This document shows positions 3,962-14,930 of a DNA stretch of 15,028 nt, in pieces. Position 1 is the stretch's first letter. Each line of letters opens with the position of its first letter. A program made the position numbers and the translations under genes. The notes under the pieces were generated by a model, which saw only the letters and a list, made by a program, of their open reading frames with translations, was not told the DNA's origin and made no database searches. The DNA comes from Promethearchaeia archaeon (lineage in GTDB: Archaea > Asgardarchaeota > Lokiarchaeia > Sigyniarchaeales > SOKP01), in assembly GCA_046483985.1 (NCBI GenBank), contig JAWOCD010000026.1, positions 1-15,028 of the forward strand, given 5' to 3'.

Positions 3962-4191
3962 TGAATATTAAGATTGATGGAGATCCTGATAAGATTAAGG
4001 AGAACCAGTATTTTATCGAGACAATCATTGAGATCTTTAAGACCTGCAAAAACAGTAAAGAGTTCATCACGCGTATAAATAAATTAGTCAACGAGAAAAA
4101 TGGATTTATAAAAGTAAAAAAAGACGGGAAAACGATTATTGACACTGAAAAAAATATATATACGAAATTGGAGGCGGAGCGAGAAGGATGA
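3961..4191 (+). CDS. Hypothetical protein
   Basis: TAATG coupling; ends in the repeated junction peptide EAEREG. Confidence 0.75.
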   Translation: MNIKIDGDPDKIKENQYFIETIIEIFKTCKNSKEFITRINKLVNEKNGFIKVKKDGKTIIDTEKNIYTKLEAEREG

Positions 4192-4610
4192 CCGATTGTA
4201 AAGAAGATATAGATTTGATCTGGTTGATCGAGAAGTTTGATTATGCGCTGCAGTCTCATTTTCCGTTTGCCTATACAGAATCCCGGGAAAAAGCAGAGCA
4301 ATTACTTATGGAAGAGGATACGGGATTTAACGAGTTCCGAGTGAGGAAAGTCAAAACACTAAAGGAGGTGGAGCGAGAGAGATTTAAGACGATGAGTTTA
4401 GAGGAGAAATACGAGCAAGGCATTGATCTTCAAGATGGAGAAATTAGGCTTATACTTGCTTGTAATCAAGATTTTTACCGACAAACCGGAGGAATTCCAA
4501 TTCGAAATAGAAAATATACAGAGACTTTCAAACAATGGCTAAGAGAAGAGAGAGGGTGGAACAGATTAGTAGATTATATAGAAAAGAAGGAGGCTGAGAG
4601 AGAAGAATGA
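4188..4610 (+). CDS. Hypothetical protein (possibly a fusion of two cassettes)
   Basis: Starts MTDCK, ends EAEREE. Contains an internal junction-like copy (KEVERER..M) with an in-frame ATG at 4392. Confidence 0.8.
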   Translation: MTDCKEDIDLIWLIEKFDYALQSHFPFAYTESREKAEQLLMEEDTGFNEFRVRKVKTLKEVERERFKTMSLEEKYEQGIDLQDGEIRLILACNQDFYRQTGGIPIRNRKYTETFKQWLREERGWNRLVDYIEKKEAEREE

Positions 4611-4753
4611 CCGATTGTAAATACTCTGAGTTCGAGAAAGCTGCGGGAGAGGTACTCTGTGGACATCCAAGAAATGTAGTAGGCCTCTGTCGGTTATATT
4701 GCTGTCCGTTTATATTAAAACTACAAAAGGAGGCGGAGCGAGAAAATGACTAA
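4607..4753 (+). CDS. Small Cys-rich protein, 48 aa (MTDCKYSEFEKAAGEVLCGHPRNVVGLCRLYCCPFILKLQKEAEREND); not in the supplied ORF track
   Basis: Hand-translated. Shares its start (MTDCK) and end (EAERE) with its neighbours; SD and ATGA overlap. Confidence 0.8.
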   Translation: MTDCKYSEFEKAAGEVLCGHPRNVVGLCRLYCCPFILKLQKEAEREND

Positions 4754-5105
4754 AATACAACAGAAATTGAGAAGGATGAGTAACTCTAAAATGGAACACT
4801 ATCAATTCTCCAGCTCATTAAGTACTTGTAAATCTTGCGGCACAGAAATCACCACTCAAAATCGCTTTAGCAATCTACCATGTAACCACTATTGCTGTCA
4901 TTGCTGCTCACATAAAGAAGAGTTACCATGTCCAAGAGAAAAAGAGTTTGGAACTATCTTAGATAATATTAAATCCAATACAAGAGAGCAAATTCTAAAA
5001 GCAATTGATCGAAAGAAGATTTTCATCGGTTATATGATGCTCTGTAGATATCTGAAAGGAAGTAAAAAGACATGCCTAGAAAACACATACAGAACGGATT
5101 ATTAA
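4746..5105 (+). CDS. Cys/His-rich zinc-finger-like hypothetical protein (CKSC...CNHYCCHCC...C)
   Basis: SD within the junction repeat; dense Cys/His cluster. Confidence 0.7.
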   Translation: MTKIQQKLRRMSNSKMEHYQFSSSLSTCKSCGTEITTQNRFSNLPCNHYCCHCCSHKEELPCPREKEFGTILDNIKSNTREQILKAIDRKKIFIGYMMLCRYLKGSKKTCLENTYRTDY

Positions 5106-5126: not shown

Positions 5127-5894
5127 ATGAATAAAACCACAATTCAGAAAATTCTCAAAACTTTAGGAATTAAACGAGGGACCATGTACGACGACGCCAT
5201 CCAGAGACTCAATTTTCATGTGGGTTGTAAATTCAAATGTAAATATTGCGCGCCGACATTTCAGAGACAAATGAAACGACAAAAACAAAACTGTATAGAC
5301 TGTTATCATTATGTTCCACATCTTCATTTAGACCGTTTAGAGGATTATCTGGATCATACGACAGGGGATGAATTCATTTGGTTAGGCGCTTCAGGCGATA
5401 TCAGTTTTTGCCCAAAAGACGCGATGCGAGAAGCAGTTAAGGTAACTAAAAGGAATCAAGACCGGACATTCTTTTTTCAGACAAAAAATCCCTCATATTT
5501 TCACGGATTTAAGTTTCCGGATAATGTGCTGCTCTGTATCACATTGGAAACAGACAAAGATCATATCGCAAGGCAAGTTTCCTTGGCCCCAGCACCGAGC
5601 AAACGCATAAAAGATTTCAAAGAGTTAGACCACCCTCATAAAGTCATAACAATCGAACCGATTATGACGTTTCACTTGAAAAAAATGAAACAGATTATTC
5701 TCGATAAGATTAAACCGGAACGGGTTTACATTGGTTATGATTCGCATCCAGACTATTCCAATCTAATCGAACCGCGGTTAGAAAAAACATTAGCATTGAT
5801 CAAAGCAATCTCAAAGCATACAAACGTAAAAACAAAAGAGATCCGCTTTCCGCACCAACATCAAGTTAATTTAACACAATGGGGTGTCAACTAA
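5127..5894 (+). CDS. Radical SAM protein, DUF5131 / phage Gp37-Gp68 / SPL-like, with C-terminal PIP-box-like QVNLTQWG
   Basis: GCKFKCKYC (CxxxCxxC), FFFQTKNP, ITLET, VITIEPIM and VYIG motifs. GAGGAGGT SD. Confidence 0.88.
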   Translation: MNKTTIQKILKTLGIKRGTMYDDAIQRLNFHVGCKFKCKYCAPTFQRQMKRQKQNCIDCYHYVPHLHLDRLEDYLDHTTGDEFIWLGASGDISFCPKDAMREAVKVTKRNQDRTFFFQTKNPSYFHGFKFPDNVLLCITLETDKDHIARQVSLAPAPSKRIKDFKELDHPHKVITIEPIMTFHLKKMKQIILDKIKPERVYIGYDSHPDYSNLIEPRLEKTLALIKAISKHTNVKTKEIRFPHQHQVNLTQWGVN

Positions 5895-6339
5895 AATGAA
5901 CCAGAATTTTTCATTTTCCTCTAAATTTGGAAAAGCATACGTCGCAGCAATTCGCTCAGGAAGAAAAGATATGACGAATCGATTTGCGTCTGAATTCAGA
6001 GCAAAATGTAAAATTAATGATCTTATGCATTGTTTTTTAGACCTTCGTTCCGAAAACAGAAAAAGATTATTTGATGTCCCGGTCCAGAGGAGGATCTTAT
6101 GGTTTGTTGATGATATGCCTCAGCCAGAGGTCGCACATGAAGTCATGTCACCGCGATACTCGTTTAGTTGGAGGGATTTTGCAATTAAGGACGGCCTTTC
6201 AACATATACAGAATTTTACGAATATTTTCAAAACCACAAAAAGGGCAAAAAGTTCTTTTGTTTCATCTGGGACCCTGCGCAACGTCTAAAAAAAATTACT
6301 TTAATGCGATTTATAAAAAAAAAGAAGAAGATTATATAA
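5884..6339 (+). CDS. ASCH (PUA-like) domain protein
   Basis: AIRSGRKDMTNR matches the ASCH GxKxxTxR signature, plus the C-terminal FAIKDGLSTYTEFYEYF helix motif. The start could be ATG 5896. Confidence 0.82.
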   Translation: MSTKMNQNFSFSSKFGKAYVAAIRSGRKDMTNRFASEFRAKCKINDLMHCFLDLRSENRKRLFDVPVQRRILWFVDDMPQPEVAHEVMSPRYSFSWRDFAIKDGLSTYTEFYEYFQNHKKGKKFFCFIWDPAQRLKKITLMRFIKKKKKII

Positions 6340-6348
6340 AAAAATAAA

Positions 6349-7029
6349 ATGACGGAAACAAAAAACAAGATTGATAAATCAACCCAGTGGTGGGAAGATA
6401 AACCATTTGGCGCCCCGTGTTCTCAATGTCGAAAAGCACCGATGCGACATGTTGGGCTCTATACTGAAGAATGTCCGCGATGCGGCCATTATTATGTTTA
6501 TGATTTTATTAACGATACCGTGAAAGAAGAAGGATTTCGGAACCATTTCTGTGAGCAAGGAGAGGTGTTAGTATTAACAAATTGTAGTAAATCGAAAGCA
6601 AACTCGCCGTGTCAAGCAAAAGCGCTGTACCAAGGCCACATCTTTCAAAAGGCACTAAAATTAGCAAACCGATTTAAGTTTGATTTTTATATAATCAGCG
6701 CAAAATACGGCTTTCTTTCAGGTGAAGCCAAAATTGCACCGTATGATAATGAAATAGTTACAAAATCAGATAAGGACAACTTGCGAGAGCAAATCACCGA
6801 CGAATTTATACAACATATTCAAACCTATAAAACGATTATCTTGGCGATGGGTAAAAAATATCGGGAAGTCATAAAACCATTGCTAAAACATAGCGATGCC
6901 CGAATATTATCTGTAAGTAGTAAGAAAGGGTACGGAGGGTATCTTCGTAAATTAGACAAACTCATAACTATGGACCCTATTAATTTTAAGAAACTTATTC
7001 TAAAACGAGGCGGTGAGAGCGATAAATAA
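6349..7029 (+). CDS. DUF6884-like protein with N-terminal Zn ribbon
   Basis: LTNCSKSK...AKALYQGHIF...FYIISAKYGFL...IAPYD...MGKKY is the DUF6884/YaaA-related pattern. N-terminal CSQC...CPRC. Confidence 0.8.
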   Translation: MTETKNKIDKSTQWWEDKPFGAPCSQCRKAPMRHVGLYTEECPRCGHYYVYDFINDTVKEEGFRNHFCEQGEVLVLTNCSKSKANSPCQAKALYQGHIFQKALKLANRFKFDFYIISAKYGFLSGEAKIAPYDNEIVTKSDKDNLREQITDEFIQHIQTYKTIILAMGKKYREVIKPLLKHSDARILSVSSKKGYGGYLRKLDKLITMDPINFKKLILKRGGESDK

Positions 7030-7366
7030 GAAAAGAAATACGGGGGCGTTGGATTCATTTTTATCTAAAAAGACGTACCCCAAAAAGACACAGCCACACA
7101 GAATAAAGGTCCCACCACAACTGAAACAAGTAAACTGTGAGAAATGCGCGTATTATCAAGGAATATATTGTCCACGTTGCATGTGCGTATATAAATATCT
7201 AATCCGACACATACGAGGTGTTGAGAGGTTAGAGGGGTCCTCGAAGGACCTCAAACTTATCAGAGAGTTTGAAAAATTAGGTTTTCAAGTCGATTGGGAA
7301 GATACCCGGTATGACTTGAAAAAAATTACAAAAATAACCATTCCGGAGGAAGAGTATGAAAGATAA
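7013..7366 (+). CDS. Zinc-finger hypothetical protein (CEKC...CPRC) with N-terminal PIP-like TGALDSFL
   Basis: Fills the gap between coupled genes; Cys cluster. The exact start is uncertain. Confidence 0.7.
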   Translation: MRAINKKRNTGALDSFLSKKTYPKKTQPHRIKVPPQLKQVNCEKCAYYQGIYCPRCMCVYKYLIRHIRGVERLEGSSKDLKLIREFEKLGFQVDWEDTRYDLKKITKITIPEEEYER

Positions 7367-8108
7367 GCCCAAAGTTCAGAAACATAAATTAGGAAAGATA
7401 ATCTTTTGCGATTGTTTAGATACGGAGTACGGCCTCCCCAGCATAGAAGATAATTCTTATGACTTAGGATTTACCGACCCAAAATGGGGAGTTAAAATGC
7501 AACAAAATACCCGCACCTATATCGACGGTCGCGAGATGGATAATTCAGATAAGGTCCATTTTGACGATACAACATCCCCCGGATTTAATAAAACATGGTT
7601 TTTGCATTTAGACCGGATATGTAAGCGTATCATTTTAGTTTTAGGCGATAAACAGATTATATGGTTTATTCGCCATATTCAAAAAGAACCGAAAGGAATC
7701 TTACCGATCTTTTGGAAGAATTCACCATTCGGCTGCGGATACGCAAAACGCCGGCGACATTCACATTATTTGTTATACGGAAAATTTGATACTAAATTCA
7801 TGCATAGCATCTTAGCAAAACGGTATACTTCATCAAACGTGGAACCATTTACATATTATTGGGGTGCCACAAATAAAGAAAAACACTTTAATCATCCGAG
7901 TCCTAAAGGCTTGGAAATTCCGATGCGAATTTTAAAGGAATTAAATCCCAAATCTATGATTGACCCATTTTCAGGGTCGGGGACGTATGTATATGCGGCG
8001 CATATCCTAAATATTCCCTTTTTAGGTTATGAAATAAATGATAAAGAATATTGTAAAGATCATGAATGGCGATTTGCCCAAAAAAATATTAGCAGGTGGA
8101 TAAGCTGA
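7356..8108 (+). CDS. Site-specific DNA methyltransferase, N4-C/N6-A, beta class; C-terminal PIP-box-like QKNISRWI
   Basis: Catalytic motif IV variant TDPKW precedes HPSPK and SAM-binding motif I IDPFSGSGT...GYEIN, which is the beta order. GGAGG SD. Confidence 0.92.
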   Translation: MKDKPKVQKHKLGKIIFCDCLDTEYGLPSIEDNSYDLGFTDPKWGVKMQQNTRTYIDGREMDNSDKVHFDDTTSPGFNKTWFLHLDRICKRIILVLGDKQIIWFIRHIQKEPKGILPIFWKNSPFGCGYAKRRRHSHYLLYGKFDTKFMHSILAKRYTSSNVEPFTYYWGATNKEKHFNHPSPKGLEIPMRILKELNPKSMIDPFSGSGTYVYAAHILNIPFLGYEINDKEYCKDHEWRFAQKNISRWIS

Positions 8109-8410: not shown

Positions 8411-10387
8411 ATGTCGGCACCAAAAAAATTCGATGTTGAGGCGGAGCTTCAGAACCAATTCAAAAAAGACCTTGTTACTCAACTCAAAAAACATGGATTT
8501 AAGGAATGGAAGTTAGAATTTGAAGAATATACAGACGCGAAGCGAACATTTAATTATCTCAGACTCTCTATTGAGCGATCTAAAAGAGACCCAAATACCG
8601 GCTTTTCTGAGAGTGTAAAACTAAATGATAAGGTTAATGGAGCCCTTTTTCCGTTACGCGAAAAGTGGGTATGGGAAAACGGAGCATACCACGGACCCTG
8701 CGCAGTTGACAAACTTCTTGACGAGAAGATTATATCAAATCACCATTTTTATGACATTAGATATAATTGGGAATGGGTCAAGAGACAGCACGGGACGATG
8801 CTCGGCCACAATATAAATATAAATGGTTATTACATCAAAATGCTTCAATATCTTTCTTTCCCCCATCCCGATTGGTATTATTCATATAATTGGTACTATT
8901 TTCCAAAAGAGGGTGATATTTATCTATCAAACTTTAGCGCACAGAGAGTTTTTCGGGCGACAAGACAATATATACAAGAATTTGATCACAGTTATCCATA
9001 TATTTTCATTCCTATGCGCGATTCATTAATTTCATGCTTGTTAAAAGACTCGGAAAAGCATGTATCAGTTTTAACGTCGAATGAAGGTCGCTACTTCGTG
9101 GAGGGACGGAAATACACATCAAGAGAGGAAGTAATCAAAGCGTATGAACAATATTTAGAGACGCAGCATATTTCAGTTCATTTCAATAGTGAAGTTTGTC
9201 TTTTCTTTAAATTCTTTATGAAGGAATTGTTTAGCGTGACATGGGATAAGAAACATGAAAAATGGTATAGAACGAAGATTTATCAAATTAATAAACATTT
9301 ATCAGTCCGTAATCGAAACGGACAAATTTCGGTTTATGTTAATGATAAAAAGTTCCGACAATGCACATATCTCCTCTTTAACTTAGATACAAATAAATTA
9401 GAAGAATATGACCGAATTAATTCTATTGACGAGATGAAAAGCATATATTCTAATGATAACGAAGCCGGAAAAGTAAGAATCGACACCGATACGGAATTTT
9501 GGGGCCACTGTTCCAATTTGCAAGCATGGTACGAAAATGATTATGATACCAGGATCCTTGAAATGCGATTGGCCTTCCCCCTACTCAAGAAGCTGACCGA
9601 AGCCGGTGACTCTCAAGCAAGAAAAGTATTTAAAGAAGAGGTTGCCCGTAGGTTCCAGAGCGGATTTCGCCCGGTACAAGAATATTTGATGATGGAAGGA
9701 TATACTGACGTTCTAACAAACGAGGAGCAAAAGTCGATAGGTCTGCTTGGGGATGATATTTTAGGCCCGTATAAGAGAGCAATAAAGAAACACTGCGCTG
9801 ACTCATCGGTAAAAAAAATGATTCAAGAGCTTCACTTAACTTATTTAGAAGAGGAGAGATATGATGCAGAAATACGGGTGCCCGTGTTATTACTCAAAAA
9901 CGGCACTTATCTTAATCTCTCTCATCGAGCGCTTATAGAGTTAGGATATAAACATCTTCTCGGTCTTTTACATCCTTATAAAGATGAAATTGTAGAGCAG
10001 TTTCAAACCGATGTAATCATAAGATTATTACGACATTTAATTGAGATTCCGCATTCAGAAGGTGAAGACTTTCTGAAAGGATTGAAACTTAAGCGATGTG
10101 AATATCTCACAATGAAAAAAGAATATTGTCCTAATTTTCATCCTAAGTTTTGTGGAGTTGAGTTTGTCTGTTTTTGTCAGGATACTTGTAGTTTATGTAA
10201 TAAACCCTATTGCGCTCATACACAGTGCAAGGTTGACCTTGTTCATTTCCGGGAGGTAACAGGCAAACATTTTGTAAACCCCTACAAACAAAAGAGATGG
10301 GAAAAGCAAGAAGAATTACGAAGCTTTCATAAGCCGGATAATACGCTGACATTAGATTATTTTATGCAAAAAAAGGAGGCACATTAA
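8411..10387 (+). CDS. Multidomain protein with central Lokiarchaeia-type 'FWGHCSNLQAW' domain, Cys-rich C-terminus and PIP-like tail TLTLDYFM
   Basis: 658-aa ORF with GGAGG SD. About 9270-9715 encodes YQINKHLSV...VYVNDKKFRQC...SIDE...EFWGHCSNLQAWYENDYDTRIL...AFPLLKKLTEAGD..ARKVFKEEVARRF, recalled from Lokiarchaeia LRR-associated proteins. Confidence 0.85.
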   Translation: MSAPKKFDVEAELQNQFKKDLVTQLKKHGFKEWKLEFEEYTDAKRTFNYLRLSIERSKRDPNTGFSESVKLNDKVNGALFPLREKWVWENGAYHGPCAVDKLLDEKIISNHHFYDIRYNWEWVKRQHGTMLGHNININGYYIKMLQYLSFPHPDWYYSYNWYYFPKEGDIYLSNFSAQRVFRATRQYIQEFDHSYPYIFIPMRDSLISCLLKDSEKHVSVLTSNEGRYFVEGRKYTSREEVIKAYEQYLETQHISVHFNSEVCLFFKFFMKELFSVTWDKKHEKWYRTKIYQINKHLSVRNRNGQISVYVNDKKFRQCTYLLFNLDTNKLEEYDRINSIDEMKSIYSNDNEAGKVRIDTDTEFWGHCSNLQAWYENDYDTRILEMRLAFPLLKKLTEAGDSQARKVFKEEVARRFQSGFRPVQEYLMMEGYTDVLTNEEQKSIGLLGDDILGPYKRAIKKHCADSSVKKMIQELHLTYLEEERYDAEIRVPVLLLKNGTYLNLSHRALIELGYKHLLGLLHPYKDEIVEQFQTDVIIRLLRHLIEIPHSEGEDFLKGLKLKRCEYLTMKKEYCPNFHPKFCGVEFVCFCQDTCSLCNKPYCAHTQCKVDLVHFREVTGKHFVNPYKQKRWEKQEELRSFHKPDNTLTLDYFMQKKEAH

Positions 10388-10403
10388 GAAAATGACTAAA
10401 ATA
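10371..10403 (+). repeat. Second copy of the 33-nt direct repeat first seen at 4725-4757
   Basis: AAAAGGAGGC-ACATTA-AGAAAATGACTAAAATA vs AAAAGGAGGC-GGAGCG-AGAAAATGACTAAAATA: 27/33 identical, 5646 bp apart. Confidence 0.8.
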
Positions 10404-10484
10404 AATATACGGTTAAAAGCAGAGAAACCCCACTTTAGACAAATTACAGAATATACGGAGGGGATAGACCATAGTAGAAAGTAA
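10392..10484 (+). CDS. 30-aa ORF (MTKINIRLKAEKPHFRQITEYTEGIDHSRK), leader peptide or N-terminus of a frameshifted gene
   Basis: Hand-translated. GGAGG at 10375-10379; overlaps the start of the long downstream frame. Confidence 0.5.
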   Translation: MTKINIRLKAEKPHFRQITEYTEGIDHSRK

Positions 10485-12666
10485 ATCGCAATTTAGGACC
10501 TTCACAGAGTGGTTAGAAAAGCAACAACAATCAATCGAATTTAATATAAATAATACAATTGCCTATTTTCAAGACTTTGAGCAATTCCAGTCAAATCTGC
10601 GACAAAATGCGCCGTTATCAAAAGAACAAATAAAACATCTCAAAATACATCGGGACCATCAAGACCAATATTATTTAATTCTTCCCGAAATAAAAGAAAT
10701 ATTATTTCGGGACCAAGATCAGCACGACAAAATTCAAAATTCAAAACCGATATTTTTATCCGATCTCCCTGAAGATATACAGTATTTTTTACATAAAATA
10801 GCAGAAGATAATGTTATTGAAATTAAAGAGGAAAAACAAACAATTCTCAAGTTAGACAAAAAAGACCTTTATTTTATGGCCATCAAAAATTATCAACCTA
10901 AGACCCAATTTTCAAAATTCTTAAAACAAATTATTACAACACATTTTCAAGATCAAAATTATCTGTATTTTAAACCATTTTTTGCGCAATTTTCAGAAAA
11001 ACAATTACAAACTATTAAGAAATCACAATCTTCAAAAGAAATCAAAAAAACAACCTCTATTTCCGATGGAAAAAAAAAAGATACCTCATCGGCGAAAAAT
11101 AAAGGAAATAAAGGGGGGGTTAACATCGAATCCTTGGAGAATGGTCGTTCACGGCTCGAGCAGACCGATTGGCAGGAGATCGACGACCGATCCTTTTCGT
11201 ATTTAGGAGAGAAACAGAAAAAGGCGTTAGATAAATTTGGGATGTGGATCAGTGAGGATGCATACATTCATTTTCACAGTTTTCGGTGCGACTTGGATAT
11301 AAGACACGATCCGAACGACCGGGATCTGTTTGAGGCAATTGTAGAGTTGTTCGAACCGAACTGGAGTAACCGGAATAGAGCGACACCAATTCCGAATAAA
11401 CTACAAAAGAAGCTAAAGATCTGTTTTAGTATGCAGATGAGCGCAAAGGGTTACCTTCAGTTGCATTTAAATTCGCGTGACGTGCAGCAGGTGGTTACGG
11501 ATATTATGAATGTATTCGCGGGCAAATATTTTCAGGGAAAAGAGGGATTAACCGAGCAGCAGTTACAACTGTTATTTGACCGCATTCATGATACGGAGAC
11601 AAAACGGAAGATGTTTACGTTGGATGTAAAGCACGGGCAACAAATGCATGTTGCACACGAGACAGGTCCCAAACATGTGATTGATAAAGATTTTAAAGGG
11701 GCGAAGGTTCGAATTATGATGGCAAACCCGTTCGGAAAAAATCGGTATAAAGCGTTTGTCGATTACTCGGATAAAGTGAACCCGCATTACGAAGCTGATG
11801 GGGCGGCGGATGTGGTCCAGAACTTTATGCAAACCGCGTCGGTTCCGATGAAGGTAACCTCGGGATTGGACGAAATGCGAACGTTAAATTATAAAATACA
11901 GCGAACAAGCGAAGAGACGTTTGCCGGTGTCGGCCAGATTTATGATACGGTACATGACGTGCAGCAATCGCAAGCTACGCAAACCGATATTGACGACTTA
12001 TCGAAGCAGATCTCACAGAAACTTACGCAAGTATCGATATCGAGCGAATTAGATAAAATTGAAGTGATTGACTTTATCAAGAAAAATATTAACCGAAAGT
12101 TGGAGTCGTTACTAACGCAGCAGCAATTATCGCTACAAGAACGCGCAAACTTAAAGACAGCACTGATTAAAATGTCGATTGATTTAAGCGCGTCTTTACT
12201 GAATTTAGAGGGAAACATTAAAAACGAGATAGGGCGCACCGAACAGCATGTAGAACAAACCGTTATCGATACAAATAATTTAGTGATGAAAAATAACGAT
12301 AAAAATACGAAGAACCTTAAAGCGCATATCGATAAAAAATTTGAAAATCTACATCAATACCTAGATAAACAATTTTCGCAGGTCCAGTCGCAGCGAAAAC
12401 AATGTTTATATTTAATATTAAAAAAAATAGATAAAAATCGGGAGATGACAATGGGCGAGCTTCAGAAACACATAAAACAATTTCATCTTCCACGCAGCAC
12501 ACTGCATTATTACCTAAAACGGATGCATGCCAAAGGAATAGTGCGTGCGGAAAATAAACACACTAAGACGCGGGGGCGCCCACCAAAAATATACCGTCTT
12601 ACGGAAAAGATAAAAGAATTATTCAAAAATAATAATAAAACTGGAAGTGAAAAAAATGACAATTAA
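10471..12666 (+). CDS. Large protein (about 731 aa if started at ATA 10471) with coiled-coil region and C-terminal winged HTH
   Basis: Frame 1 is open from 10468 to 12666 with no ATG/GTG/TTG before 10876. GGAGGGG SD at 10457-10463 sits 7 nt before ATA. The C-terminus LILKKIDKNREMTMGELQKHI..LPRSTLHYYLKRMHAKGIV...RGRPPKIYRLT is a wHTH. Confidence 0.75.
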   Translation: MVESKSQFRTFTEWLEKQQQSIEFNINNTIAYFQDFEQFQSNLRQNAPLSKEQIKHLKIHRDHQDQYYLILPEIKEILFRDQDQHDKIQNSKPIFLSDLPEDIQYFLHKIAEDNVIEIKEEKQTILKLDKKDLYFMAIKNYQPKTQFSKFLKQIITTHFQDQNYLYFKPFFAQFSEKQLQTIKKSQSSKEIKKTTSISDGKKKDTSSAKNKGNKGGVNIESLENGRSRLEQTDWQEIDDRSFSYLGEKQKKALDKFGMWISEDAYIHFHSFRCDLDIRHDPNDRDLFEAIVELFEPNWSNRNRATPIPNKLQKKLKICFSMQMSAKGYLQLHLNSRDVQQVVTDIMNVFAGKYFQGKEGLTEQQLQLLFDRIHDTETKRKMFTLDVKHGQQMHVAHETGPKHVIDKDFKGAKVRIMMANPFGKNRYKAFVDYSDKVNPHYEADGAADVVQNFMQTASVPMKVTSGLDEMRTLNYKIQRTSEETFAGVGQIYDTVHDVQQSQATQTDIDDLSKQISQKLTQVSISSELDKIEVIDFIKKNINRKLESLLTQQQLSLQERANLKTALIKMSIDLSASLLNLEGNIKNEIGRTEQHVEQTVIDTNNLVMKNNDKNTKNLKAHIDKKFENLHQYLDKQFSQVQSQRKQCLYLILKKIDKNREMTMGELQKHIKQFHLPRSTLHYYLKRMHAKGIVRAENKHTKTRGRPPKIYRLTEKIKELFKNNNKTGSEKNDN

Positions 12667-12751
12667 ATTGTTTTACCGGGACCCATTTTCATATCTCGCT
12701 TTTCCATCACTTAATAAACTTACTCAAGAACGAGGTGAAAGCAGCCAGTGA
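12656..12751 (+). CDS. 31-aa ORF (MTIKLFYRDPFSYLAFPSLNKLTQERGESSQ); not in the supplied ORF track
   Basis: GGAAGTGA SD at 12643-12650; overlaps the upstream stop and has a GTGA overlap with the next gene. Confidence 0.5.
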   Translation: MTIKLFYRDPFSYLAFPSLNKLTQERGESSQ

Positions 12752-13239
12752 GCAAAAGTAAAAGTAAAACAAATCAACATAAATCGCATCAGCCTGCAAG
12801 TAAAAAATCACGGTCCAAATCAACCTGGGTCGAATTATTTTCAATAAAAAATATAAATAAAAAAGGAAGTGAAAAGAAAATGTCGTTTATAAAATGTAAA
12901 AAATGCAGAATGATCTTATATGTCCCCAGAGGGACTACATCCATTAGCTTTGGTGAAAGACTCTCAAAAGTAGAACATCAACCGGAGGCCCTTGAGGAAT
13001 TTATTGGAGAATTAACAGACTTTGATTATTTCAGAGGAGTTCATAACTCTATATGCGCAAATCAATTGCCAACGGAGATCGACATTAATGAAGAGAAATG
13101 GGAAGTACTTGATACAAAAAATACAAAAGATCTTTATTGGGGAGATTGGATTAGACCATTCTCAATAAATCAAGTTGTTCATAAAACATATGAGGACTAC
13201 GAAAAATGGATGAAATCTAATTTGAATAAAAATAAATAA
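12748..13239 (+). CDS. Hypothetical Zn-binding protein (CKKC...HNSIC); alternative start ATG 12880
   Basis: GTG 12748 has a GAGGTGA SD and in-frame ATG 12880 has a GGAAGTGA SD. The first 44 aa are basic and low-complexity. Confidence 0.75.
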   Translation: MSKSKSKTNQHKSHQPASKKSRSKSTWVELFSIKNINKKGSEKKMSFIKCKKCRMILYVPRGTTSISFGERLSKVEHQPEALEEFIGELTDFDYFRGVHNSICANQLPTEIDINEEKWEVLDTKNTKDLYWGDWIRPFSINQVVHKTYEDYEKWMKSNLNKNK

Positions 13240-13270
13240 AGGCCCGAGAGAGCCTCTTTTTGAATCTCCT
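13240..13270 (+). ncRNA. Structured intergenic element copy 1 (putative H-type pseudoknot / terminator)
   Basis: AGGC-CC-GAGAGA-GCCT-CTTTTTGAA-TCTCCT immediately after a stop codon. Confidence 0.6.
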
Positions 13271-13306
13271 AAACAATTAAATAGAAAATTAAAGGAAGTG
13301 AAAATA

Positions 13307-13648
13307 ATGGCAATAAAAGCCCGAATCTTAAACGAAGAAAGAAAAAAAGAATGGCAAGAGACGTTAGGCACCGACACCATTAATGTACAGTCGCCTGTAC
13401 CATCTTATCATAAAGTATGCGGAAAGAAAAGATTAGTATACTGGATGGATATGCGTAAATTAACCGAAAAGCAAAAGGAAAAGATGATTATTCATATCGC
13501 GCAAAAATTTGAAGAAACAATTAAAGCAGCAGACGACTTTACGCATGATACGGTAGAAGAATACGTACGACAAAATATAGACACATTCGCCGTCCCAGTT
13601 CTTGCTGATGACGTTATAGTAAGTATGAACGCATCAATATTATTTTAA
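13307..13648 (+). CDS. Hypothetical protein
   Basis: ATG 13307 is preferred over GTG 13298, which lies within the GGAAGTGA SD at 13294-13301. Confidence 0.8.
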   Translation: MAIKARILNEERKKEWQETLGTDTINVQSPVPSYHKVCGKKRLVYWMDMRKLTEKQKEKMIIHIAQKFEETIKAADDFTHDTVEEYVRQNIDTFAVPVLADDVIVSMNASILF

Positions 13649-13651
13649 TAG

Positions 13652-13684
13652 AGGTTTGAGGGTACCTATTTTTTTGAAACCCTC
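13652..13684 (+). ncRNA. Structured intergenic element copy 2 (covariant)
   Basis: AGGT-TT-GAGGGT-ACCT-ATTTTTTTGAA-ACCCTC, with compensatory substitutions relative to copies 1 and 3. Confidence 0.6.
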
Positions 13685-13717
13685 AAAACAATTACCATTA
13701 ATAAAAGAGTGAATAAA

Positions 13718-13996
13718 ATGCCAAGAAAAATAGAGTTTTATATCAACTTTAAGAAGAAGATCGGGAAACGCGGTGTACAGTTTGACGTATACAAAAGTAC
13801 AAAATTTAACCCGGCCAAGAATAGTGAGACAATCAAATGTACGCTTGCTATTCCTGACGCATATTTCCAAGAACAAATACTTCAAGCGCATTTTGAAATT
13901 AATCCTCAAAACCCACACATCGCCGAAGCAAAAATCGAGGATAACAGGTTATCTAATTTAGAAAAACAACTAAAAGAACTTACCAAGGAGGAATAA
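13718..13996 (+). CDS. Hypothetical protein
   Basis: ATG 13718 follows the SD-like GAGTGA, which contains the track's GTG 13709. Confidence 0.75.
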   Translation: MPRKIEFYINFKKKIGKRGVQFDVYKSTKFNPAKNSETIKCTLAIPDAYFQEQILQAHFEINPQNPHIAEAKIEDNRLSNLEKQLKELTKEE

Positions 13997-13997
13997 A

Positions 13998-14237
13998 ATG
14001 TCTATTTTATTAAGATCACAGCTCAGAACCATAATTGAGACAATTATCAAGGAGGATAAGCAAGACGGTTTTGTAGACCCCGAGATCAACTTCAAAAACG
14101 CAATTGCAAGAGTGCTGGAGTTTTTACAAAAGGAAGTATTATTGGGAACATTCAATAAAAGCGTACCGTGGAAATTAAGAGAAGAGATCCATGATGCGCT
14201 TGAGCCCGTGGTAAAAAAAATAATAAAAGTAAGATAA
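13998..14237 (+). CDS. Hypothetical protein
   Basis: AGGAGG SD, 1 nt after the previous stop. Confidence 0.8.
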   Translation: MSILLRSQLRTIIETIIKEDKQDGFVDPEINFKNAIARVLEFLQKEVLLGTFNKSVPWKLREEIHDALEPVVKKIIKVR

Positions 14238-14241
14238 AATA

Positions 14242-14275
14242 AGGCCCGAGAGAGCCTACTTTTTTTAAATCTCTC
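14242..14275 (+). ncRNA. Structured intergenic element copy 3
   Basis: AGGC-CC-GAGAGA-GCCT-ACTTTTTTTAAA-TCTCTC. The 17-mer AAGGCCCGAGAGAGCCT is identical to 13239-13255. Confidence 0.6.
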
Positions 14276-14331
14276 ATATTTCATATACATCTAAAAAAAA
14301 AACAGCGAGAAAAAACAATAAAGTGAAAAAA

Positions 14332-14463
14332 ATGGAAAAATCAGAGCAAATTGTTAACTCATTAATATTCATGAAAAAATACAACGATCAGATCTATGAT
14401 GAAACAATCAAAAATAAAATTAACGAGGGAAATATTAGAATTAAAAATAAAATCAATAAATAG
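14332..14463 (+). CDS. 43-aa hypothetical ORF (MEKSEQIVNSLIFMKKYNDQ...)
   Basis: Hand-translated. AAGTGAAAAAAATG junction like neighbouring genes, but very A-rich and possibly spurious. Confidence 0.45.
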   Translation: MEKSEQIVNSLIFMKKYNDQIYDETIKNKINEGNIRIKNKINK

Positions 14464-14640: not shown

Positions 14641-14666
14641 AGATAATTAAAATTGTAAATATAATG

Positions 14667-14690
14667 TTTTTCTTTTTTTTTCTTTTTTTT
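14667..14690 (+). terminator. Oligo-T archaeal-type terminator
   Basis: TTTTTCTTTTTTTTTCTTTTTTTT about 26 nt after the last + strand stop, followed by about 300 nt of non-coding sequence. Confidence 0.6.
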
Positions 14691-14930
14691 ACCTGAATAG
14701 TTGTTCCCCCCATAAGTTTCGAAAGTTATTAAATACTCATCGCATCAGAAAAGGCATAAAATCTGAGACCCGCAAATTGCTGCTAAATCACAAAATAAAA
14801 TCAACAGAATTTAATCACTATAATTTAGACACAAATCAGTTTAAAAAAATACAAAAATTATACGATAAAACATTTCCGTACCCGGAGTTTATTCCAAACC
14901 CTCAATATTTACAAGATTATTAATTTTAAT

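What the first reader, a model, noticed from the sequence alone, without database searches (positions are those of the whole stretch)
13240..14275. Three-copy intergenic RNA motif with covarying H-type pseudoknot placed right after stop codons
Seen in sequence: three elements start 0, 3 and 4 nt after the stops at 13239, 13648 and 14237. All share the layout S1(4)-L1(2)-S2(6)-S1'(4)-U-rich L3(9-12)-S2'. Copy 3 (14242-14275) is AGGC CC GAGAGA GCCT ACTTTTTTTAAA TCTCTC. Copy 2 (13652-13684) is AGGT TT GAGGGT ACCT ATTTTTTTGAA ACCCTC. Copy 1 (13240-13270) is AGGC CC GAGAGA GCCT CTTTTTGAA TCTCCT, where S2 is 4 bp, a mismatch and a G-U. Between copies 2 and 3, three base pairs change on both sides (S1 C-G to T-A; S2 A-T to G-C and A-T to T-A), so structure is conserved over sequence. 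Copies 1 and 2 continue with AAACAATTA and reach the next ATG 67 and 66 nt after S1, so the whole intergenic unit is homologous. Inference: it could be a pseudoknotted terminator/antiterminator switch (the U-tract is enclosed only if S2' is transcribed), a nuclease-blocking or processing element, or a ssDNA recombination site delimiting gene cassettes. The size and S1/8-nt-loop geometry loosely recall ToxI type III antitoxin pseudoknots, but those are tandem arrays. I recognise no described archaeal family for it.
Basis: partly seen in the sequence, partly recalled or inferred. Interest (0 to 1): 0.8.

Follow-up and report, generated by a model that had tools for sequence, protein, structure and literature searches.

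The report
Interleaved-helix terminator cassette, Asgard mobile element
A 31-35-base sequence, a run of T's wrapped in two interlocking mini-helices, recurs right after stop codons on a mobile element of an Asgard-type archaeon and on two metagenome contigs. It most likely closes one small transcription unit and opens the next, and it marks the points where small genes are swapped in and out.

Summary
All three copies sit at the stated coordinates with the stated layout, and 0 of 200 shuffles gave three matches.

I found three more good copies and one decayed copy on two JGI metagenome contigs, L051 and L072. Across the six good copies, 55 of 60 pair cells are Watson-Crick. Four pairs change on both sides: one in S1 and three in S2. 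Both helices are therefore real, and they cross each other. Whether they form at the same time, as a true pseudoknot, is untested.

The T-run lies where this host places its structure-free oligo-T terminators. It also looks like the TATA-type boxes upstream of some host tRNA genes.

The helices are specific to this element. Host terminators show no such structure. A covariance model found no further copy in the own genome or in about 300 Asgard genomes, and pattern scans of IMG/VR and the GTDB representative genomes found none.

The copies mark mosaic junctions. A sibling contig has a single copy where the window has copies 1 to 3, so it lacks the three genes between them. L072 shares only the roughly 87-nt intergenic unit with the window and no protein.

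Best reading: an archaeal analogue of the PeSL terminator/promoter cassettes of T4-like phages. Function is inferred, not shown.

The parts
13240..13270 (+). Copy 1. S1 13240-13243, L1 13244-13245, S2 13246-13251, S1' 13252-13255, L3 with a T5 run 13256-13264, S2' 13265-13270. S2 is weak here: 4 Watson-Crick pairs, one A.C mismatch and one G.T.
13652..13684 (+). Copy 2, the diverged copy. S1 13652-13655, L1 13656-13657, S2 13658-13663, S1' 13664-13667, L3 with a T7 run 13668-13678, S2' 13679-13684. It carries three two-sided compensatory changes, and S2 can extend to 8 bp.
14242..14275 (+). Copy 3. S1 14242-14245, L1 14246-14247, S2 14248-14253, S1' 14254-14257, L3 with a T7 run followed by AAA 14258-14269, S2' 14270-14275. 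All ten pairs are Watson-Crick.
13271..13306 (+). A-rich spacer of unit 1, with AAACAATTA and the Shine-Dalgarno-like GGAAGTGA before ATG 13307. It is part of the conserved ~87-nt intergenic unit.
   Evidence: L072 519-605 aligns to window 13229-13313 at 75%; repeat D16
13685..13717 (+). A-rich spacer of unit 2, with AAACAATTA and an SD-like AAGAGTGA before ATG 13718.
14276..14331 (+). Spacer of unit 3 up to ATG 14332. It is homologous to the stretch that directly follows the single copy in the sibling contig L051.
   Evidence: L051 944-1065 aligns to window 14231-14351 at 89%
13272..14230 (+). Three-gene block (113-, 92- and 79-aa ORFans, plus copy 2). It is present in the window and absent from sibling contig L051. 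The indel is bounded by copies 1 and 3, which are direct repeats 1002 bp apart.
   Evidence: repeat D6
12625..12656 (+). Spacer-plus-SD half of a unit, fused to the 3' end of the 596-aa gene. Homology to L052 stops at 12628 and homology to L051 starts at 12627, so this is a mosaic junction. L051 has a decayed helix/T-run part upstream of this spacer, and the window has none.
   Evidence: repeat D8

Best explanation
The element is the 5' half of a portable intergenic regulatory cassette of about 85 nt. Its order is: stop codon, two interleaved short helices around an oligo-T run, A-rich spacer, Shine-Dalgarno sequence, next start codon. It is used in the small-ORFan region of a mobile element (virus or plasmid) of a Loki-type Asgard archaeon.

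**Proposed mechanism (inferred)**
- The T5-T7 run on the coding strand is the archaeal intrinsic termination signal for the upstream gene.
- S1 forms in the RNA just before the run is transcribed. S2 closes over the run if the polymerase reads through. Together they tune termination or 3'-end stability.
- The same T-run followed by (G/A)AA may double as the TATA box of the downstream gene.

**What is shown rather than inferred**
- Because the cassette is repeated in direct orientation, homologous recombination between copies deletes, inserts and exchanges the small genes between them.
- The copies therefore coincide with mosaic junctions between related elements.

This is how the PeSL (promoter-early stem-loop) cassettes of T4-like phages work. 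This element is an analogue, not a homologue.
For: **Position**
- All six good copies lie at gene ends in the gene's orientation, from overlapping the stop codon to 13 nt after it.

**T-run as terminator**
- In the host genome, T5 runs are concentrated in the first 40 nt after stop codons. The count falls from 0.25-0.38 per 10-nt bin to 0.08 at 90-100 nt, and 41% of 1552 gene ends have one.
- The genome encodes TBP, so it uses archaeal transcription.

**T-run as TATA box**
- Four of 19 host tRNA genes have the same kind of T4-7 + AA box starting 23-33 nt upstream of the mature 5' end.

**Helices under selection**
- 55 of 60 pair cells are Watson-Crick, and four pairs are compensated on both sides. 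The chance estimate is about 1e-4.

**Helices specific to this element**
- 690 host oligo-T terminators show no excess of flanking inverted repeats (10.0% against 9.9% in the control). They also show no upstream hairpin (mean -0.68 against -0.51 kcal/mol).

**Portable unit**
- L072 shares only the intergenic unit with the window (75% over 87 nt). tblastx finds no protein similarity.

**Shuffling**
- L051 has one copy where the window has copies 1 to 3. The left flank of that copy matches the left flank of copy 1, and its right flank matches the right flank of copy 3.
- A second junction lies at 12627/12628.
- Other repeated gene-boundary sequences occur on the contig.

**Published analogue**
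- PMC2839356 and PMC4122927.
Against: - Termination, promoter activity and folding are all inferred.
- Archaeal oligo-T termination needs no hairpin, so the role of S1 and S2 in termination is unexplained. S2' lies downstream of the T-run and would be missing from terminated transcripts.
- S1 is only 4 bp. Alone it gives -2.1 to -4.5 kcal/mol at 37 C, and its outer pair is broken in two copies.
- The TATA reading rests on resemblance to four tRNA upstream regions. Upstream of protein-coding genes the positional signal for such boxes is shallow.
- The sample is small: six copies on three contigs, and most compensation sits in one copy (copy 2).
- The indel could be a single chance deletion between repeats rather than a recurrent process.
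Confidence: 0.5

Rival explanations
1. A true H-type RNA pseudoknot with a dedicated job on polycistronic or read-through RNA. Candidates are a block to 3'-5' or 5'-3' exonucleases that defines stable cistron ends, a processing site, or a docking site for an element-encoded RNA-binding protein. The T-run would then be mainly loop 3 rather than a terminator.
For: - S1 and S2 share no nucleotides and cross each other, and both show two-sided compensation.
- The geometry fits the steric rules for classical H-type knots (established knowledge): S1 of 4 bp, L1 of 2 nt (5 nt in one copy), no L2, S2 of 6 bp, L3 of 9-12 nt.
- Each helix alone is marginal at 37 C: S1 -2.1 to -4.5 and S2 +0.1 to -6.9 kcal/mol. 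This favours cooperative folding.
- S2' is conserved even though it lies beyond the T-run.
- The short L1 is always made of pyrimidines.
Against: - No pseudoknot-capable folding or probing was available.
- Copy 1 has a degraded S2, and two copies have a broken outer S1 pair.
- There are no G.U-only substitutions that would separate RNA from DNA pairing, or one strand from the other.
- No Rfam family matches.
- The family is tiny.
Confidence: 0.25
2. A DNA-level promoter with an operator. The T-run followed by AA would be the TATA box of the downstream gene, and the S2/S2' inverted repeat around it would be the binding site of a dimeric repressor encoded by the element (ribbon-helix-helix or winged-helix protein).
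For: - TATA-like boxes of the same form lie upstream of four host tRNA genes.
- Two RHH proteins and a winged-helix protein are encoded on the contig.
- The arms are about two helical turns apart, centre to centre.
Against: - Copy 2 changes two of six positions in both half-sites in step, on the same element. One repressor would not tolerate that, but base pairing explains it.
- S1 and its compensation are left unexplained.
- L072 shares the site but none of the window's proteins.
Confidence: 0.1
3. A folded single-stranded DNA recombination site, like integron attC sites or the hairpin targets of HUH enzymes, that is cut and joined by a dedicated recombinase to capture gene cassettes.
For: - Structure is conserved over sequence.
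- The copies lie at the 3' ends of small promoter-poor ORFan genes in one orientation.
- There is a precise indel between two copies.
Against: - Pfam or PHROGs found no tyrosine or serine recombinase and no HUH protein on the contig. The contig is incomplete, however.
- At 31-35 nt the element is far shorter than attC sites, and it lacks their core motifs.
- One 'cassette' holds two genes.
- Plain homologous recombination between 33-nt repeats that are 85% identical explains the indel.
Confidence: 0.05
4. No function for the helices. The copies would be recent duplicates of an intergenic stretch. The complementary changes would come from template-switch correction of a quasi-palindrome or from chance, not from selection.
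For: - The family is very small. Copies 1 and 3 share an identical 16-mer.
- Most of the compensation sits in one copy.
- Copy 1 and the decayed copy L051a show erosion.
Against: - Four independent pairs are compensated in two different copies.
- The element is retained next to wholly unrelated genes in L072.
- The chance estimate is about 1e-4.
- Two interleaved repeats being corrected at once by template switching is unlikely.
Confidence: 0.1

Closest known systems
PeSL (promoter-early stem-loop) regulatory cassettes of T4-like phages (Arbiol et al. 2010, PMC2839356; Comeau et al. 2014, PMC4122927)
   Same: - Both are short composite motifs that run from the stop codon of one small ORFan to the Shine-Dalgarno sequence and start of the next.
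- In both, a stem-loop is interleaved with the promoter boxes.
- Both are repeated many times in one orientation in the variable part of the genome.
- In both, indels and replacements between close relatives have their ends in the motifs, through homologous recombination between copies.
   Different: - The host here is an archaeon, so there is no sigma-70 promoter. The candidate signals are an oligo-T terminator and a TATA-like box.
- There are two crossing helices instead of one G/C-rich stem-loop.
- There is no sequence similarity.
- Promoter function, terminator function and mini-circles were shown by experiment for PeSLs. Nothing has been shown here.
Archaeal intrinsic (oligo-T) terminators
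   Same: A run of five to seven T's on the coding strand within about 25 nt of the stop codon. This is where the host's own gene ends carry such runs.
   Different: Host terminators carry no conserved structure. Here the run is enclosed by S2/S2' and preceded by S1, and both show compensatory change.
Classical H-type pseudoknots (viral frameshift and read-through knots, small riboswitch knots such as preQ1-I)
   Same: The topology and the stem and loop lengths match: a short L1 crossing a 6-bp S2, no L2, and a longer L3 crossing a short S1.
   Different: - The element lies after the stop codon, not after a slippery site or a leaky stop.
- Read-through would add only a few codons.
- L3 is U-rich, not A-rich.
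- No Rfam model matches, even at E <= 1.
ToxI-type (type III) antitoxin RNA repeats
   Same: A similar unit size of about 34-36 nt and a pseudoknot fold.
   Different: - ToxI units form tandem arrays next to a ToxN endoribonuclease gene and are cut by that enzyme.
- These copies are 412 and 590 bp apart with genes between them, and Pfam finds no ToxN-like gene in the 30 ORFs scanned.
Integron attC sites
   Same: Both lie at the 3' ends of cassette-like ORFan genes, conserve structure over sequence, and have cassette-sized indels between copies.
   Different: - attC sites are 55-141 nt imperfect hairpins with R''/L''/L'/R' boxes, and they need an IntI integrase.
- This element is 31-35 nt with crossing helices, and neither the boxes nor an integrase was found.

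Membership tests
H-type pseudoknot (structural class) | Two helices in crossing order: 5' S1, 5' S2, 3' S1, 3' S2 | tested here: met
   The segmentation of six copies shows this order. S1 and S2 share no bases.
H-type pseudoknot (structural class) | Each helix supported by compensatory change | tested here: met
   S1 position 4 changes C-G to T-A. S2 positions 1, 4 and 6 are each changed on both sides. The chance estimate is about 1e-4. The sample is small: two informative copies.
H-type pseudoknot (structural class) | Both helices formed at the same time in the RNA | not testable with these tools
   ViennaRNA folds nested structures only. This needs chemical probing or pseudoknot-aware folding.
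Bacterial-type intrinsic terminator | Stable G+C-rich hairpin of at least 5 bp directly followed by a U-run | tested here: not met
   S1 is 4 bp and gives -2.1 to -4.5 kcal/mol. The candidate fifth pair is a mismatch in every copy. The + strand copies are not called by the terminator scan.
Archaeal oligo-T terminator | Run of at least 5 T's on the coding strand shortly after the stop codon | tested here: met
   The window copies have T5, T7 and T7, and the three metagenome copies have T6. This matches the position where host T5 runs are enriched. Activity was not tested.
PeSL-type mobile regulatory cassette | Spans stop codon to SD/start of small ORFans, repeated in one orientation in a variable region | tested here: met
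PeSL-type mobile regulatory cassette | Indels and replacements between close relatives end in the cassettes | tested here: met
   L051 has one copy in place of copies 1 to 3 and lacks the three genes between them. A second junction lies at 12627/12628.
PeSL-type mobile regulatory cassette | Sigma-70 early promoter plus a stem-loop shown to terminate transcription | tested here: not met
   The host is archaeal, with TBP present. Only a TATA-like box is seen. This is therefore an analogue, not a member.
ToxI type III antitoxin | Tandem array of repeats next to a ToxN-family endoribonuclease gene | tested here: not met
   The copies are 412 and 590 bp apart. Pfam finds no ToxN-like domain in the 30 ORFs scanned.
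Integron attC | A 55-141 nt imperfect hairpin with R''/L''/L'/R' boxes and an integron integrase nearby | tested here: not met
   The element is 31-35 nt with no such boxes. No recombinase was found on the contig.
Any Rfam 15 family | Covariance-model match | tested here: not met
   No match in the whole window at E <= 1.

The most novel reading that the evidence does not exclude
The element is a genuine, compact pseudoknot made for archaeal transcription units. The U-run of the terminator is loop 3 of the knot, so folding decides whether RNA polymerase stops, or whether the finished 3' end survives exonucleases. The same DNA also serves as the next gene's TATA box and as a recombination handle. 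That would be a structured terminator/promoter/shuffling module in Asgard mobile elements. I know of no described archaeal counterpart, and two full-text searches turned up none.
Probability: 0.2. Interest if true: 0.7.

Novelty: new variant of a known kind. Interest (0 to 1): 0.5.

Why it matters
Very little is known about how the mobile elements of Asgard archaea organise transcription, or how they gain and lose their many small orphan genes. This element offers a concrete, testable handle on both questions.

It is a short cassette that sits exactly at the breakpoints between related elements. It also couples the simple archaeal T-run terminator to conserved RNA or DNA pairing, which the host's own terminators lack.

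If the pairing affects termination or RNA stability, it would be a rare case of structure-assisted termination in archaea. If it only serves as a recombination handle, it extends the PeSL principle of modular shuffling from T4-like phages to archaeal elements.

The caveat is the very small family: six good copies on three contigs.

Tried and rejected
- **Rfam:** a scan of the whole window at E <= 1 found nothing.
- **Exact 16-mer in IMG/VR:** 23 hits, all chance matches inside unrelated high-GC coding DNA or unrelated contexts.
- **Degenerate pattern in IMG/VR:** 13 hits, none with an S2' complement.
- **Second pattern in IMG/VR:** 0 hits.
- **Same second pattern in 185,579 species genomes:** 15 hits, all bacterial, at about the number I estimated for chance (~17).
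- **Own genome:** a strict structural scan found only AT-rich chance hits outside this contig, 9 against 3 in the reversed control. The covariance model found nothing below E = 0.35.
- **Same-order genomes (about 150):** the DNA search gave only A-rich chance matches. The pattern search gave one hit inside a coding region. The covariance model gave two weak hits. One lies inside a gene and the other has no minus-strand gene ending next to it.
- **150 genomes of the phylum:** one weak hit without the helices.
- **Protein route:**
  - The 113-aa and 119-aa proteins have no relatives beyond one sibling.
  - The 596-aa search returned nothing.
  - Its three homologues in related genomes carry no copy on their contigs.
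  - Nor do the contigs of four of the five remote homologues of the 119-aa protein. No DNA could be fetched for the fifth.
- **Phage and plasmid collections:** nothing relevant.
- **Extended 6-bp hairpin with a GNRA-type tetraloop:** rejected, because the fifth pair is a mismatch in every copy.
- **Minus-strand terminator reading:** set aside, because there are no minus-strand genes and copy 2 does not fit.
- **Alignments:** the MAFFT and model-based alignments put copy 2's S2' one column out of register. I therefore counted pairs from explicit coordinates instead.

Full report
**Setting**

The window is a whole 15,028-bp contig (C49) of a 4.06-Mb, 128-contig genome bin. Its GC content is 35.9%, against 35.2% for the bin.

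The bin encodes two TBP genes, which the control search finds only in archaea (for the bin, for TBP). Earlier notes of this scan call it a Loki-type Asgard archaeon. I did not check the phylum beyond the TBP search.

All plausible genes are on the + strand and tightly packed. The recognisable ones are two ribbon-helix-helix proteins, an RNase T-type exonuclease, a DUF6884 protein, an N6/N4 DNA methylase and a 596-aa protein with a C-terminal winged helix. The rest are orphans. This is the gene content of a virus or plasmid.

Homologues of the 596-aa protein occur in three other genomes of the same family, which ties the element to this archaeal group.

The degenerate core occurs three times, all on the + strand. 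Shuffles gave a mean of 0.14, and none of 200 reached three.

Copies 2 and 3 differ at six of their 20 paired bases. All six differences fall into three Watson-Crick-preserving pairs. Random substitution reproduces that in 251 of 2,000,000 trials. Copy 1 has a degraded S2.

**New copies from elsewhere**

A 90%-identity cluster look-up led to two short JGI contigs from one sample.

- **L051.** It carries the 119-aa gene that ends at copy 1 in the window. This part is 89% identical in DNA. It is followed by a single copy whose S2/S2' pair is AAGAGA/TCTCTT. That is a further G-C to A-T compensation, while the outer S1 pair is broken.
- **L051a.** A decayed copy lies further upstream in L051.
- **L072.** Nearly all are ordinary bacterial terminator hairpins without an S2' partner. 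One hit, the 1197-bp contig L072, has two copies flanking a 177-aa gene. In one copy the stop codon lies inside L1/S2. In the other, L1 is 5 nt and S2 is perfect.

Across the six good copies, 55 of 60 pair cells are Watson-Crick, one is G.T and four are mismatches. Four of the ten pairs show two-sided change.

**The family is small and belongs to the element, not the host**

- A structural scan and a covariance model found no other copy in the own genome.
- Neither the model nor patterns found one in about 150 genomes of the order or 150 of the phylum. The few weak hits lie in coding DNA or lack the helices.
- IMG/VR and the 185,579-species collection gave only chance hits.
- More distant relatives of the element, reached through proteins, have overlapping genes and no copy.

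**What the T-run is**

In this host, T5 runs pile up in the first 40 nt after stop codons. 41% of 1552 gene ends have one, and the density falls three- to four-fold by 100 nt. This is the known hairpin-independent archaeal termination signal (established knowledge).

The runs in the element sit in that zone, on the coding strand, in every copy.

The 690 host terminators show no excess of inverted repeats around the run (10.0% against 9.9% in the control). They also show no hairpin before it (mean -0.68 against -0.51 kcal/mol). S1 and S2 are therefore an addition specific to this element.

The run followed by (G/A)AA also has the form of boxes that start 23-33 nt upstream of four of 19 host tRNA genes. 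A TATA-box role for the downstream gene is therefore possible. It would give a leader of about 20 nt that includes the Shine-Dalgarno-like GGAAGTGA. This step is inference.

**What the helices are**

Each helix alone is weak at 37 C. S1 gives -2.1 to -4.5 kcal/mol and S2 gives +0.1 to -6.9 kcal/mol. Both are stronger at 15 C.

The helices share no bases, and their order and loop lengths fit an H-type pseudoknot. I could not test whether they form together.

No substitution separates RNA pairing from DNA pairing, or one strand from the other. A dimeric-protein operator does not explain why both arms of copy 2 changed in step.

**The copies mark mosaic junctions**

- L051 aligns to the window at 12859-13271 and then, from the same element, at 14231-14351. 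The 113-, 92- and 79-aa genes and copy 2 are therefore an indel bounded by copies 1 and 3. These two copies are 33-nt direct repeats, 85% identical and 1002 bp apart.
- L052 matches the window up to 12628. From 12627 the window matches the spacer half of a cassette in L051.
- L072 shares only the ~87-nt intergenic unit with the window and no protein.
- The contig also has other repeated gene-boundary sequences.

**Comparison with known systems**

The closest described system is the PeSL cassette of T4-like phages. It runs from a stop codon through a promoter with an interleaved stem-loop to the Shine-Dalgarno sequence and start. It is repeated among ORFans and mediates indels by recombination between copies (PMC2839356, PMC4122927).

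The present element works like that on the evidence of position and junctions. It is not a member: the host is archaeal, there are two crossing helices, there is no sequence similarity, and no function has been shown.

ToxI, attC and every Rfam family fail their defining features (see the membership table).

**Verdict**

This is a real, previously undescribed small family of structured intergenic cassettes on Asgard-associated mobile DNA.

- **Well supported:** the pairing and the link to gene shuffling.
- **Inferred from position:** termination.
- **Open:** simultaneous pseudoknot folding and any promoter role.

Noticed in passing
window 12656-12751; L051 417-593: The window holds a 31-codon remnant of a small gene that is intact in the sibling contig. 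There it is 58 aa with two CxxC pairs, like a zinc ribbon. The first ~10 codons are shared, and then homology is lost until 12859.
   Followed up: partly
window 10392-10875: The frame of the 596-aa gene stays open upstream of its ATG, for 732 codons in all. Its homologues in three related genomes have open frames of 404-658 aa.
   Followed up: no
window 4170-4202, 4589-4621, 4725-4757, 10371-10403: Other 33-nt direct repeats cover the RBS and first codons at gene junctions (families D4 and D5). They are a second kind of repeated gene-boundary sequence on the same element.
   Followed up: partly
window 14641-14700: The last small gene is followed by a long T-rich tract (T5, T9, T8) without any helix. 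This looks like a plain strong archaeal terminator at the end of the ORFan block.
   Followed up: no
window 12811-12842: A different 7-bp hairpin followed by a T-rich tail lies upstream of the 119-aa gene's spacer and SD. It may be another, unrelated terminator-type unit.
   Followed up: no
whole genome (G000): Host gene ends show strong enrichment of T5 runs within 40 nt of the stop, with no associated secondary structure. ARAGORN finds only 19 tRNA genes in a bin rated 97% complete, perhaps because of introns or assembly gaps.
   Followed up: partly
L214 (JGI 3300037504 Ga0401366_0031435): This 5.2-kb contig carries a remote homologue of the 119-aa protein next to DUF5131 and N6/N4 methylase genes. 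That module resembles window 5127-8108, so it is a more distant relative of the same kind of element, without the cassette.
   Followed up: partly
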